The notes below the pieces were generated by a model. The model saw only the letters and a list, made by a program, of their open reading frames with translations, did not search any database and was not told where the DNA came from. A DNA stretch of 20,000 bases, from positions 55,478 through 75,477 of the IMG/VR virus record IMGVR_UViG_3300031993_000052; one strand, written 5' to 3'. The position numbers and the translations under genes are program-made. Positions 304 to 7,362 of this stretch are shown here, piece by piece. Source of the stretch: an uncultured virus (IMG/VR IMGVR_UViG_3300031993_000052). Its lineage: Duplodnaviria > Heunggongvirae > Uroviricota > Caudoviricetes. Position 1 is the stretch's first letter. The number at the start of each line of letters is the position of its first letter.

Positions 304-816
304 CTATACCCAAGTTATCTTTTTGTATTCTCCGTCTTCGTAGTAACCGAACGAAAAGCACATCGGGGTTAGGAAAACTGGTTCTGTGATGATGTTCTTT
401 TTGTATTTGTCCGCATACCCCTTGTTCATATATGCGATTGTGATATGGGGTTTGTAGGTCGTGAACTCCGTGTGGAGGGTGTAGTTCGCCTTTATCGCGG
501 AGTTTGTCGTATGAAGCGCTTGGCATACCACGCCGCATTTCAGGACGTCGTAGTTGTCGTTGCTGAACACGCTCACGTCTGAAAGCATTGTCTTGTAGTC
601 GTTGAGAGGAAGCAGGTGCTTTTTCAACTGTTCAAGGTTGACGTCGTTGTCGAGACAGGGAGCGAGCGTGACGTGCGTCTCGGTTTCAAGTCCATAGACG
701 AACGGTGAATCTGGGTCGCTCGGTTTGTACAGTTCATAGTCCTTGATGCTGTTTTGGATTCCCTTTATGTAGTCAGGTGTTTGGAAGTCCACCATCAAAA
801 ATGCGTATTTGTCCAT
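304..816 (-). CDS. 2H phosphoesterase, T4 gp57B/Acb1-like
   Basis: 170 aa with two HxT motifs (ETHVTL, KPHITI) at 2H-family spacing; TATAAATA upstream. Confidence 0.8.
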   Translation of the reverse strand: MDKYAFLMVDFQTPDYIKGIQNSIKDYELYKPSDPDSPFVYGLETETHVTLAPCLDNDVNLEQLKKHLLPLNDYKTMLSDVSVFSNDNYDVLKCGVVCQALHTTNSAIKANYTLHTEFTTYKPHITIAYMNKGYADKYKKNIITEPVFLTPMCFSFGYYEDGEYKKITWV

Positions 817-4327: not shown

Positions 4328-4472
4328 GCTGTTATGGCGGGACTCGAACCCGCAGTACCGCAGTAATCCTGAACCGCGGGCAACCTTTACGTCTCACTCC
4401 CAAGACTTCTAATCTGACCGACAATGGTGACGGTTTCAAGCGAGGGTTTGCCAATTCCCCTTCACATAACAG
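4328..4472 (-). ncRNA. tRNA-like RNA with 8-bp acceptor and a large structured insert in place of the anticodon arm
   Basis: CTGTTATG/CATAACAG acceptor, Leu-like D loop GGAATTGGCAAAC, T arm GCGGG-TTCGAGT-CCCGC; no canonical anticodon loop. Confidence 0.7.
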
Positions 4473-4491: not shown

Positions 4492-4570
4492 TAGGGGAGG
4501 TGGGACTCGAACCCACATACACCAATTACAGAATTAACGACTGTATATAAGACAGGACTGATACACCCCT
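4492..4570 (-). ncRNA. D-arm-less tRNA-like RNA (UAU loop, long variable arm)
   Basis: AGGGGTG/CTCCCCT acceptor, CTGT-CTTATAT-ACAG hairpin, perfect T arm GTGGG-TTCGAGT-CCCAC. Confidence 0.65.
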
Positions 4571-4732: not shown

Positions 4733-4738
4733 ATAGAA

Positions 4739-5099
4739 ACAAGGCGGTTTTTTTAGCGAGTACAAATTAACGGTTTGTTGCTTGAAAATAGTGGTTTGCG
4801 GAATCCGCCTTTATATGTTCAGTATTATGGAAAAAGAGAAAATTCAAAAAAACAAGGCAGGGGTTGTTAGCGAGTACAAATTAAAAGTTTGTTGCTTGGA
4901 TAGGTTTGCTGCACCTGCCTTTATTATTCAGTATTATGGAAAGAGAAGATTCAAAAAAAAAACAAGGGAGATTTGTTGCGTTTCAAAGTTACAGTTTGAT
5001 GCCTACAATGTTTGCTGAACCTCCCTTTAGATACAAGGTGATTTTTTTGCTTGGTTGAATTTGGATTTCACTTTGCAATGCGTTTGCTGCAATCACCTT
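4739..5099 (-). repeat. Four tandem CAGCAA-module RNAs with anticodon-like hairpins (4739-4811, 4852-4921, 4962-5027, 5033-5099)
   Basis: Each reads AAAG-stem-C(A/C)GCAA...hairpin...stem-CTTGT; stems differ between units but stay paired; duplicated linker ttcagtattatggaaa. Confidence 0.8.
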
Positions 5100-5112
5100 T
5101 TTGTTTTAATTG

Positions 5113-5605: not shown

Positions 5606-5719
5606 CCGCGGAGATTGGAGTCGAACCAATGTCAGGAGTTCCCAATAGCGAAAATTGCTGATAGGTTCTTTGAACAAGAATCATTTGCTACTCCCGTTCT
5701 GCCGTTAAACTACTCCGCG
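5606..5719 (-). ncRNA. tRNA body with a permuted CAGCAA module inserted in the anticodon loop
   Basis: CGCGGAG/CTCCGCG acceptor, D and T arms; GGAGT/ACTCC stem encloses ...TTCTTGT-TC-AAAGAACCTATCAGCAA...TTGGGA. Confidence 0.75.
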
Positions 5720-6215: not shown

Positions 6216-6371
6216 TGGGCAGGGAAGGATTTGAACCTCCGAACCCGAATGGGAGCGGATTGGCAATGTGGGAAATTACGAATTTCCGAAACTTCATTAT
6301 TCACATTGCGGTTTAACGTGTAACCTTCACGTAGTACAGTCCGCCGCGTTTAACCACTTCGCTACCTGCCC
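6216..6371 (-). tRNA. tRNA-Tyr(GUA) with 73-nt anticodon-loop intron/insertion (6262-6334)
   Basis: Removing 6262-6334 restores GCGGA-CTGTAAA-TCCGC and an intact class II cloverleaf. Confidence 0.9.
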
Positions 6372-6383
6372 TTATAGAATTTG

Positions 6384-6454
6384 TGGACATTACGGGAATC
6401 GAACCCGCTTTCACGCCTCCCGTTGCAGTGGGACACGCTACTGCCGTTATGCCC
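6384..6454 (-). ncRNA. D-stem-less tRNA-like RNA with Ala-type acceptor
   Basis: GGGCAT/ATGTCC with G3-U70 and A73; T arm GCGGG-TTCGATT-CCCGT; extended stem closing loop ACTGCAAC. Confidence 0.65.
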
Positions 6455-6465
6455 TTGTTGTTATG

Positions 6466-6537
6466 TGTCACGGATGAGACTCGAACTCACAATCCCCTGA
6501 TTAAAAGTCAGGTGCATCGCCATTATGCTACCGTGGC
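6466..6537 (-). tRNA. tRNA-Lys(UUU)
   Basis: CCTGA-CTTTTAA-TCAGG; C2-A71 mismatch. Confidence 0.93.
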
Positions 6538-7362
6538 ATTTTTTATTTTTTGTATTATATTTTTAATGAATCGTTCTTTACATTCTTTTGGCATTTTTTT
6601 ATACCGAGACCATCTTATTCTAAATAAACACGTCCATCCATTTTTTTGTAATACTTCAGTTCGTTTTTTGTCGTGTTTAACAATACGCTTGTCCAAATAA
6701 TGTTGTTCCCCATCAACTTCAAAATATGTTTTTGTTATTGGAAATGCAAAATCCAAAAAATACCCAAATTGATAATAATTTTGTTCATATTCAATATGTT
6801 CATCATTCAAAATTTGCTTAAAATACTTTTCACAATAACTATCACCGTGTGAATGATGATTTAATACATAAGGAACTTTATTCGGGTGCTTTTTCAAATA
6901 CTTTTTTCTAATATCAGAAAGGTGCTGTTTTTCTTGTTCAGTATGCTTTATTCCTTTTTGTGGACTTTTTAATTCACCGTTTTCATAACGGAGTTTAAGT
7001 GAAATTGCTGCTTGTTTAACACGCTCATCTGTCTCTTTTGTTAAACCTTTGTTCCACGGACGCTTACCCATCATACCATTACGATATACTCTATTTTTGT
7101 TTTGTGGACACTTACATTCGTGTGCTTTAAGTGATTTTACACTATAACATTGTTTTCCACAGTATTTACAAACAAGACTTTCATCTTTGTCGTAATGATA
7201 ATTTTCATTACTATGTTTTTTTGAATATACCGCATAACCACAAACGTGATTTTCCAAAGGTTTTCTATTTGGATTCAACTTACAAGTTCTTTCGTGAATA
7301 CCCAATGCACAAGAACGTTTTAACATTTTGTTACAATACCTACAAATATACATCATTTCCAA
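6523..7362 (-). CDS. Putative free-standing homing endonuclease (zinc fingers + NUMOD3-like + DUF559/Vsr-like nuclease)
   Basis: Two CxxC...H...C fingers, PWNKGLTKETDERV and KHTEQEK motifs, C-terminal FLDFAF...FEVDGEQH; visibly AT-richer than its neighbours. Confidence 0.8.
   Translation of the reverse strand: MEMMYICRYCNKMLKRSCALGIHERTCKLNPNRKPLENHVCGYAVYSKKHSNENYHYDKDESLVCKYCGKQCYSVKSLKAHECKCPQNKNRVYRNGMMGKRPWNKGLTKETDERVKQAAISLKLRYENGELKSPQKGIKHTEQEKQHLSDIRKKYLKKHPNKVPYVLNHHSHGDSYCEKYFKQILNDEHIEYEQNYYQFGYFLDFAFPITKTYFEVDGEQHYLDKRIVKHDKKRTEVLQKNGWTCLFRIRWSRYKKMPKECKERFIKNIIQKIKNATVA

What the first reader, a model, noticed from the sequence alone, without database searches (positions are those of the whole stretch)
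6216..6371. tRNA-Tyr with a 73-nt structured intron too small for group I or II
Seen: the only Tyr gene in the window is split just 3' of the GUA anticodon, with exons fully intact. The insert folds as ACGTG/CACGT plus GCAATGTG/CACATTGC enclosing GGAAATT/AATTTCC. Known: bacterial tRNA introns are typically self-splicing and much longer. Inference: protein-dependent splicing (endonuclease plus RtcB-type ligase), an unknown small ribozyme, or a nuclease-protected precursor.
Basis: partly seen in the sequence, partly recalled or inferred. Interest (0 to 1): 0.8.

Follow-up and report, generated by a model that had tools for sequence, protein, structure and literature searches.

The report
tRNA-shaped intron in phage tyrosine tRNA
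A large gut bacteriophage carries a tyrosine tRNA gene split by a 73-base insert built from a small hairpin and a shrunken tRNA; it is a compact member of an unexplained intron class first seen in Lak megaphages, and its fixed build predicts where it is cut out, although splicing itself has not been shown.

Summary
Confirmed: tRNA-Tyr(GUA) at 6216-6371 (minus strand) is split at 36/37 by 73 nt. The insert is N-U-A, a hairpin, an A-rich linker, a 13-bp tRNA-like acceptor/T helix and an unpaired C. Five Tyr homologues show compensatory changes in all three stems. It is the class of the 'enigmatic' Lak introns (PMC6784885); this scan described that build before in a Lak-type phage (e1-5959538). 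I collected 33 inserts from 16 phage records, 11 anticodons, sites 33/34-36/37: final C 33/33, U+2/A+3 32/33, 13-bp helix 29/33. In two complete genomes 7 of 7 split genes fill anticodons missing from the intact set. Not group I, group II or BHB. No spliced product in 4 RNA runs (contigs only). Best model (0.4): an RNase Z-type cut behind the tRNA mimic, a U+2-reading (RNase E-type) cut at the 5' site, and sealing by a phage ATP-dependent ligase; RtcB and EndA were not found. A KptA/Tpt1-like gene tracks the introns imperfectly. Mechanism inferred, not shown.

The parts
6335..6371 (-). 5' exon of tRNA-Tyr: acceptor 5' strand, D arm, anticodon stem 5' strand, positions 32-36 (anticodon GUA)
6262..6334 (-). 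73-nt intron-like insert between positions 36 and 37
6332..6334 (-). 5' boundary motif N-U-A (here C-U-A); U+2 and A+3 kept in 32 of 33 family members
6316..6332 (-). P1 hairpin, 4-5 bp with 7-nt loop; one pair changes G-C to A-U among homologues
6310..6315 (-). A-rich single-stranded linker, 6 nt here, variable in length
6302..6309 (-). mini-tRNA acceptor stem, 5' strand (8 bp with 6263-6270)
6288..6301 (-). 14-nt remnant replacing the D and anticodon arms, no D-loop GG; relatives carry up to a whole nested tRNA here
6271..6287 (-). mini-tRNA T-arm, 5 bp, 7-nt loop with a pyrimidine at the position of A58; two compensatory pairs
6263..6270 (-). mini-tRNA acceptor stem, 3' strand; two compensatory pairs
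6262..6262 (-). unpaired discriminator-like C, last base of the insert, C in 33 of 33 members
6216..6261 (-). 3' exon: A37, A38, anticodon stem 3' strand, long variable arm, T arm, acceptor 3' strand, A73
304..816 (-). Context gene, link unproven: 2H phosphoesterase directly after the tRNA array (2'-5' RNA ligase-like/Acb1-like)
   Evidence: (below curated cut-offs); not found in intron-bearing complete genomes G008 and G010

Best explanation
A true tRNA intron of the Lak-megaphage class, here near its minimal size, removed by protein cut-and-seal steps whose sites are set by the intron and not by the tRNA body. Shown: the anatomy, its covariation, the boundaries, the class membership. Inferred: (1) the 13-bp acceptor/T helix plus unpaired C is a tRNA mimic, cut straight after that C by an RNase Z-type 3'-processing enzyme of the host, which frees the 3' exon with a 5' phosphate; (2) a single-strand nuclease that reads a uridine two bases downstream (RNase E/G type) cuts in front of N-U-A, positioned by hairpin P1, leaving the 5' exon with a 3' OH; (3) the exons stay paired in the tRNA fold and one of the phage's ATP-dependent RNA ligases seals them. 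The intron looks like a spacer-plus-tRNA unit that has moved between anticodon loops. Odds by step: member of the Lak class 0.95; actually spliced 0.8; 3' cut directed by the tRNA mimic 0.6; this exact enzyme set 0.4.
For: Covariation in 5 Tyr homologues: 18 pairs, 97.8% of 90 cells paired, 5 pairs with two-sided changes, 0 of 500 shuffles reach the score, slid controls 26-49%. Mean identity 0.875 in the mini-tRNA, 0.82 in the insert, 0.71 and 0.77 in the exons. One boundary rule fits 33 inserts; 17 of 18 found without a pattern obey it against 8.5% expected by chance per gene. The site follows the intron: 36/37 x15, 35/36 x15, 34/35 x2, 33/34 x1. The rule yields isotypes that match the tRNA body or synteny (Glu, Lys, Trp, Tyr by nearest intact tRNA; Thr, Lys, Arg by intact genes at matching places of a relative) where the 36/37 register would give stop anticodons for three of them. 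Complete genomes: 5 of 5 split genes in G010 and 2 of 2 in G008 supply anticodons absent from their 22 and 19 intact tRNAs. The 3' domain is exchangeable: same Tyr exons and P1, different 84-nt and 115-nt inserts in G005 and G007. RNase Z cuts after an unpaired discriminator, binds T-arm and acceptor stem, and does not need D or anticodon arms (PMC7479834, passages). RNase E uses a U+2 ruler (PMC5222698, passages). Both families ring in the Bacteroides control genome and in 0 of 5 phage records. ATP-dependent RNA ligases occur in G004, G005, G008, G010 and Lak A1, one inside the G005 tRNA array.
Against: No spliced form: 0 joints in 4 of 4 RNA runs, and run X1 holds an unspliced contig identical over 6218-6414 (contigs only, DNA not excluded). 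No ligase in the 134 kb held for this phage. The 5' site fits RNase E only at U+2: positions -2, +1 and +3 here depart from the RN/WUU consensus, and the invariant A+3 is unexplained. RNase Z is said to ignore the discriminator base, so the invariant C is unexplained; the helix is 13 bp where ordinary tRNAs have 12 (recalled); the Glu members have a C right after the cut, which suppresses RNase Z. Four of 33 inserts lack a clear T-arm helix, and one (G016) breaks the 5' rule. This member has no D-loop GG and no A58. The ligase families are also in intron-free genomes. Split genes are not always sole copies: intact Asn in Lak A1, G005, L183, L185 and intact Glu in G016. P1 is not enriched outside introns. 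The host is unknown.
Confidence: 0.4

Rival explanations
1. [quoted passage not shown]
For: A family whose C-terminal lobe matches the NAD lobe of KptA/Tpt1 (VIA Z 10.6, rmsd 2.1 over 97 residues; Foldseek E 5.6e-4; PDB profile E 3.6e-4) is encoded by this phage (G001, L199:9927-10934), G005, G008, G010, G015 (weak, E 2.8e-10), Lak A1 and L281, all intron-bearing, and was not found in intron-free complete genomes G012, G019, G022, nor in G009. Checked afterwards: G015 has two introns, G009 none among 36 tRNAs. It sits next to RNA ligase genes in G005 and G008 and beside or inside tRNA arrays in G008 and Lak. Kinases of family AAA_33 in 6 of 7 records. Invariant U+2, A+3 and final C suit a dedicated reader.
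Against: The family was picked from 342 clusters using these same genomes; 4/4 against 0/4 gives p = 0.029 uncorrected and the genomes are related. Not found in intron-bearing partial records G004 (67%), G007 (41%), G002 (29%); present in G014, where 18 of 33 tRNAs were examined and none was split, and in G016, whose one insert is deviant. The N-terminal lobe does not align with the Tpt1 RNA lobe and has no conserved Arg or His; DarT1 and other ADP-ribosyltransferases also match. No candidate endonuclease emerged. The 2H gene is missing from G008 and G010 and present in intron-free G012.
Confidence: 0.25
2. The RNA is not spliced but is functional as it stands: a decoy or nuclease-resistant tRNA-shaped RNA, or a precursor whose useful product is the released mini-tRNA.
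For: Only the unspliced form was seen in RNA-library contigs. The insert is more conserved than the exons. Several genomes keep an intact copy next to the split one.
Against: Removal by one rule restores a canonical 7-nt loop with the right anticodon at four different sites, and split genes fill gaps in the tRNA set in complete genomes, 7 of 7; neither is needed for a decoy.
Confidence: 0.13
3. RNA-catalysed: the N-U-A/P1/A-rich junction self-cleaves at the 5' site, or the whole insert is a very small self-splicing intron, with proteins needed at most for sealing.
For: Invariant single-stranded bases at both boundaries; site set by the intron alone; no phage nuclease candidate found.
Against: No Rfam ribozyme match (the best non-tRNA match over the insert is drum at 13.5 bits against a cut-off of 43). 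The conserved non-tRNA part is about 25 nt, the 3' domain is exchangeable, no exon-guide pairing was seen, and a possible P1-loop/linker pseudoknot is lost in homologues.
Confidence: 0.13
4. A dead insertion: a pseudogene made by a nested tRNA or an integration scar.
For: No spliced product seen. One family member (G016) looks decayed at its 5' end beside an intact Glu gene.
Against: Exons are intact and show compensatory changes; the insert covaries; the inner acceptor strand pairs inside the insert, not with the outer tRNA as an att-site duplication would.
Confidence: 0.05
5. A degenerate group I intron or an archaeal/eukaryal endonuclease (EndA) substrate.
For: Anticodon-loop position; compact group I introns of about 180-200 nt are noted in bacterial tRNA-Tyr (earlier scan note e1-1059607, unchecked).
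Against: Ends in C, follows an A, 73 nt, no Rfam group I or II match. BHB central helix 0 of 4 pairs. EndA in 0 of 5 records while 4 archaeal controls rang.
Confidence: 0.02

Closest known systems
'Enigmatic' tRNA introns of Lak megaphages (Devoto et al. 2019, PMC6784885; passages and Supplementary Table S6 read)
   Same: Short anticodon-loop insert in a huge gut-phage tRNA gene, intact exons, no Rfam match, boundary offset from 37/38. The three Lak A1 inserts that I fetched have the same N-U-A, hairpin, linker, 13-bp helix and final C. The major capsid protein is 32% identical to Lak's.
   Different: Standard genetic code and about 45% G+C; 73 nt against 79-114 nt; no D arm or GG and a non-canonical T-loop; a true Tyr gene, whereas the Lak A1 gene published as Tyr reads as Asn(GUU) at 35/36 under the rule (G73, short variable loop). 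The paper noted a tRNA inside the Thr intron only and gave no mechanism.
Archaeal/eukaryal tRNA introns removed by EndA/TSEN (PMC4090602, passages)
   Same: Short, protein-dependent, cut-and-ligate logic; archaeal sites are also transplantable to other positions.
   Different: No BHB motif, site 36/37, no EndA gene found, 3' site defined by an internal tRNA mimic.
Bacterial group I tRNA introns (PMC4090602 passage; boundary features recalled)
   Same: Anticodon-loop location in a bacterial-type tRNA.
   Different: No terminal G, no U before the 5' site, no catalytic core, a third of the size or less.
tRNA-like processing signals cut by RNase P/RNase Z (mascRNA, plant mitochondrial t-elements; recalled, PMC1920247 seen as a search listing only)
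   Same: A shrunken tRNA fold used as a cut signal inside another RNA.
   Different: Here the element sits inside a tRNA anticodon loop and the flanks must be rejoined; 13-bp helix and invariant C.
Phage tRNA repair (T4 Pnk/Rnl; jumbo-phage ligases, 2H and KptA enzymes; PMC7824862, passages)
   Same: ATP-dependent ligases that seal anticodon-loop breaks, with kinases and KptA-type enzymes, are present in these phages.
   Different: Repair mends one break made by a host nuclease; here two programmed cuts must remove an insert.

Membership tests
Lak-type phage tRNA introns | Short insert in the anticodon loop of a huge-phage tRNA gene with intact exons | tested here: met
   capsid and other phage genes
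Lak-type phage tRNA introns | No match to a known intron family in Rfam | tested here: met
Lak-type phage tRNA introns | Insert strongly conserved between genomes | tested here: met
Lak-type phage tRNA introns | Same build as the Lak inserts (N-U-A, hairpin, linker, 13-bp tRNA-like helix, final C); feature derived here and in note e1-5959538, not in the paper | tested here: met
   3 of 3 Lak A1 inserts fetched and this one
Lak-type phage tRNA introns | Removal of the insert from the RNA | tested here: inconclusive
   0 joints in 4 RNA runs kept as contigs; one unspliced contig. Not shown for Lak either in the passages read.
Group I introns | Last base G and U before the 5' site (recalled) | tested here: not met
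   last base C, preceding base A
Group I introns | Catalytic core (Rfam group I models) | tested here: not met
   no match at gathering score or at E up to 10
Group II introns | Domain V/VI and GUGYG start (recalled) | tested here: not met
   no Rfam match; starts C-U-A
Archaeal BHB introns | 4-bp helix flanked by two 3-nt bulges at the splice sites | tested here: not met
   0 of 4 and 0 of 3 pairs in the canonical register; definition
Archaeal/eukaryal tRNA introns | EndA/TSEN endonuclease available | tested here: not met
   PF01974 in 0 of 5 records, one of them complete; 4 archaeal controls rang; own genome is partial
Eukaryal tRNA introns | Position 37/38 | tested here: not met
   unique canonical register is 36/37
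HDV-like/theta and other small self-cleaving ribozymes | Known ribozyme fold | tested here: inconclusive
   drum 13.5 bits against 43, E 7.6; pseudoknot not conserved; an unknown fold cannot be excluded
RNase Z substrates | Acceptor stem plus T arm, unpaired discriminator, no C directly downstream | tested here: met
   by inspection for this gene against PMC7479834; helix is 13 bp; cleavage not tested
RNase E sites | U at +2 in a single-stranded segment | tested here: met
   32 of 33; PMC5222698
RNase E sites | Full RN/WUU consensus | tested here: not met
   here U at -2, C at +1, A at +3
Tpt1/KptA (associated protein L199:9927-10934) | NAD-binding ART-fold lobe | tested here: met
Tpt1/KptA (associated protein L199:9927-10934) | RNA-binding lobe with conserved Arg/His catalytic residues (recalled) | tested here: inconclusive
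   no conserved Arg or His before residue 215 in 19 sequences; N-lobe not aligned to Tpt1; N-terminal model partly under pLDDT 60

The most novel reading that the evidence does not exclude
A further mechanistic class of tRNA intron, confined so far to large phages and mobile between anticodon loops, that is spliced without a ribozyme core or EndA: a nested tRNA mimic and a 5' hairpin signal recruit ordinary processing nucleases, phage RNA ligases rejoin the exons, and a new KptA/Tpt1-like NAD enzyme family serves as its dedicated cofactor. It would be protein-mediated tRNA splicing inside a bacterial cell.
Probability: 0.4. Interest if true: 0.88.

Novelty: new variant of a known kind. Interest (0 to 1): 0.68.

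Why it matters
Bacteria are described as having self-splicing group I introns in tRNA genes, while protein-dependent tRNA splicing is described for archaea and eukaryotes (PMC4090602). The Lak inserts were left unexplained in 2019, and my 8 literature searches returned no mechanism. This 73-nt member has boundaries that cannot slide, so it is a clean substrate for a one-tube test. The rule also corrects annotation: genes called Tyr or ochre suppressor in such phages read as Asn, Glu, Lys or Arg, which matters for studies of phage recoding. If RNase Z, RNase E/G and a ligase are enough, it gives a portable RNA-splicing module made of host parts.

Tried and rejected
Pattern scan of 185,579 prokaryote genomes: 21 matches, 0 in tRNA genes; the pattern covers only the Tyr 36/37 form. 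BLAST against cultured phages: 31 records, exon fragments only. Pseudoknot between P1 loop and linker: lost in homologues. Idea that P1 is an ordinary 3'-processing signal of tRNA arrays: hits outside introns near shuffled levels in 12 arrays; descriptor recall 13 of 18, computed on a table in which three inserts were mis-parsed and later corrected. Alternative cut one base earlier on both sides: gives Asp on a Tyr body. Nearest-neighbour isotype calls were noisy: own gene and two other Tyr genes scored nearest to Ser or Phe, and most Asn genes to His, with only 4 Tyr references. Intronless alleles: the relative G007 has different, not intron-free, Thr/Lys/Arg genes, and the two Phe genes are unrelated, so no direct presence/absence boundary was obtained. 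226-aa ligase family: in 15 of 15 Lak records, G004, G005, G008, G010, but also in intron-free G012, G019, G022, so not specific. T4 Rnl1 searches are uninformative, controls silent. The whole-genome pattern missed most introns later found in G008 and G010, so its blanks do not show absence. MAFFT misaligned the 18-intron set, so no covariance model was built. 2H gene as splicing CPDase: not tied to introns. Intron status of G011, G017, G018, G020, G021, G025 and LR756500 remains undetermined, and that of G014, G016 and G023 is partial. No complex prediction was run.

Full report
OBSERVATION. The window is part of a 75-kb virus record, 26% complete, with a minus-strand array of 26 intact tRNA genes called by ARAGORN, a T4-like capsid gene, tail sheath, DNA polymerase B, IF-1 and Thg1. 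Its capsid protein is 43% identical to that of a 462-kb uncultured phage and 32% to Lak phages. It uses the standard code. A second record, G001, is identical over 65.8 kb and extends the sequence to about 134 kb. The finding is real: 6216-6371, minus strand, 37-nt exon, 73-nt insert, 46-nt exon. Removing the insert gives a regular tRNA-Tyr with long variable arm and A73. The boundaries cannot slide: only 36/37 gives a canonical Tyr loop. No intact Tyr gene was found in the sequence held.

ANATOMY. The insert reads C-U-A, a 4-5-bp hairpin (P1), a 6-nt A-rich linker, an 8-bp stem, 14 unpaired bases, a 5-bp T-arm stacked directly on the 8-bp stem, and one unpaired C. The last 48 bases are the top half of a tRNA: a 13-bp acceptor/T helix with a discriminator, ending exactly at the 3' boundary. 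I saw this after reading the Lak sequences and scan note e1-5959538, which describes Lak inserts as a small hairpin plus a miniature tRNA, and I then tested it.

CONSERVATION. Pattern scans gave four diverged Tyr homologues. Across the five genes, 97.8% of 90 cells in 18 intron pairs are paired, 5 pairs change on both sides, spread over all three helices, 0 of 500 shuffles reach the covariation score, and slid controls give 26-49%. Five related sequences are few, and the structure was drawn from the first of them, so this is strong but not formal. The mini-tRNA is more conserved (0.875) than the exons (0.71, 0.77). A loop-linker pseudoknot possible in our copy is lost in others.

THE CLASS. 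A split-tRNA detector run over the fetched loci gave 33 inserts from 16 phage records, 68-136 nt, in 11 anticodon types. Final C 33 of 33; U+2 and A+3 32 of 33; T-stem of at least 4 pairs plus acceptor of at least 7 in 29 of 33; sites 36/37 (15), 35/36 (15), 34/35 (2), 33/34 (1). The register was chosen by the rule where possible, and 12 members (the query included) came through patterns that impose part of it, so the fair test is the 18 found without a pattern: 17 have a register that satisfies the rule, against 8.5% per gene in shuffles, and 14 have the helix. Inserts of other builds that the detector listed as 'other' were left out of the count; G004 Trp, G008 Met and Thr and G016 Glu were kept although deviant. 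The rule turns apparent ochre suppressors into Glu, Lys and Arg and apparent short-arm Tyr genes into Asn; Glu, Lys and Trp agree with the nearest intact tRNA, Thr, Lys and Arg with intact genes at matching places in a relative. The Lak A1 gene published as Tyr reads as Asn at 35/36. The 3' domain ranges from a whole nested long-arm tRNA to our remnant and to plain hairpins. In the complete genomes G010 and G008, 5 of 5 and 2 of 2 split genes supply anticodons missing from 22 and 19 intact tRNAs; G012, G019 and G022 have no such insert. Against that, Lak A1, G005, L183, L185 and G016 keep an intact copy. A scan of prokaryote genomes for the Tyr form gave 21 matches, none in a tRNA.

RNA EVIDENCE. 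Ten runs hold part of the region, 9 on record as RNA, 8 labelled bovine gut. I laid 4 of them, all contigs: no joint in any; run X1 has an unspliced contig with no differences over 6218-6414 and X7 an unspliced relative. Contigs drop rare forms and may come from DNA, so this neither shows nor excludes splicing.

WHAT IS KNOWN. Devoto et al. (bioRxiv 10.1101/356790 passages; PMC6784885 passages and part of the supplementary spreadsheet) reported introns in Lak tRNAs, noted a possible tRNA inside the Thr intron and a one-base offset, and gave no mechanism. Crisci et al. mention them once in methods (PMC8346664, one passage). Eight searches returned no explanation; subscription papers are largely outside the library and bioRxiv supplements were not seen. 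Group I, group II, BHB and 37/38 tests fail.

MACHINERY. RtcB: none in any of the 12 phage records searched, including complete G008, G010 and Lak A1, with 10 of 14 controls ringing. EndA: 0 of 5. RNase Z and RNase E/G: 0 of 5 phage records each, both ringing in the Bacteroides control. ATP-dependent ligases of PF09414: 2 each in G004 and G005, 4 over cut-off in Lak A1, one gene inside the G005 array; three ligase families recur in intron-bearing and intron-free genomes alike. None lies in the 134 kb held for this phage. Kinases of family AAA_33 are in 6 of 7 records. A contrast of 342 protein clusters picked out one family with a KptA/Tpt1-like NAD lobe, encoded by this phage about 12 kb from the array. 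A profile found it in 7 of 28 records. It is present in intron-bearing G001, G005, G008, G010, G015, Lak A1 and L281, and absent from G009, G012, G019 and G022; G015 and G009 were checked afterwards and fit. It was not found in partial intron-bearing G002, G004 and G007, and it is in G014 and G016, where no clean intron was seen in the part examined. Its N-terminal lobe is not Tpt1-like, so it is not filed as Tpt1. Jumbo-phage KptA enzymes and RNA-repair kits are described in PMC7824862 (passages).

MECHANISM. The splice site moves with the intron, so a ruler on the tRNA body is out. The 3' site lies where RNase Z cuts a tRNA, after an unpaired discriminator, with D and anticodon arms dispensable (PMC7479834, passages). 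The 5' site has the U+2 that RNase E uses as its ruler (PMC5222698, passages; PMC10503654, passages). From established chemistry (recalled in part) these cuts leave 3' OH on the 5' exon and 5' phosphate on the 3' exon, the ends that an ATP-dependent ligase joins without healing. This is my best model at 0.4. It leaves the invariant A+3 and final C, the thirteenth pair, the hairpin-only variants and the poor fit to the full RNase E consensus unexplained. A dedicated phage system with the KptA-like protein gets 0.25, an unspliced decoy 0.13, an RNA-catalysed step 0.13, a pseudogene 0.05, group I or EndA 0.02. No enzymatic step is shown.

VERDICT. A real, selected, compact variant of a reported but unexplained class of phage tRNA introns. 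New here: the class reaches beyond Lak, to four positions and 11 anticodons; a boundary rule tested on pattern-free members; the sole-copy pattern in complete genomes; a candidate cofactor gene. The build itself was noted before by this scan on a Lak-type phage. Interest 0.68.

Noticed in passing
window 6384-6455 (-): tRNA-Cys(GCA)-like gene with an irregular D arm, missed by ARAGORN and below the Rfam tRNA cut-off; the ARAGORN tmRNA call over 6383-6765 overlaps it and tRNA-Lys and looks spurious.
   Followed up: partly
window 4328-4471 and 5606-5719 (-): Two tRNA-shaped elements with normal acceptor and T arms but enlarged, irregular middles; not of the N-U-A class. Similar elements occur in the arrays of related phages.
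   Followed up: partly
window 4492-4570 (-): Weak Rfam tRNA match (29.1 bits) with an extended anticodon arm.
   Followed up: no
window about 4735-5100 (-): Four similar 70-80-nt units in a row, each apparently closed by a stem and sharing a short internal motif, between tRNA-Arg and tRNA-Met; seen by eye.
   Followed up: no
window 6523-7362 (-): 279-aa DUF559/very-short-patch-type endonuclease gene inside the tRNA array; relatives sit in the arrays of L166, L191 and Lak.
   Followed up: partly
window 304-816 (-): 2H phosphoesterase (2'-5' RNA ligase-like/Acb1-like) directly after the array; same place in L191.
   Followed up: partly
L199:9927-10934 (G001): Undescribed family with a KptA/Tpt1-like NAD lobe and a different N-terminal lobe, up to three copies per genome, near RNA ligases and tRNA arrays.
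   Followed up: yes
L256:14985-15148 (Lak A1, MK250016.1): The gene published as intron-bearing tRNA-Tyr reads as tRNA-Asn(GUU) with the intron at 35/36; Lak A1 also has intact Asn and Tyr genes.
   Followed up: yes
L307:11834-12052 and L234:4943-5141: Tyr introns of 136 and 115 nt that contain an almost complete nested tRNA.
   Followed up: partly
L179:7721-8091 (-): tRNA gene with a 298-nt insert, probably a group I intron, in the same array as two N-U-A class inserts; not tested.
   Followed up: no
L202 (G001, about 114.8-124.2 kb): A tandem run of more than ten related 140-170-aa genes with similar N-termini and no Pfam match.
   Followed up: no
L191: Close relative of this phage with higher coding density under table 15 and a CUA-anticodon tRNA, while this phage uses the standard code.
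   Followed up: no
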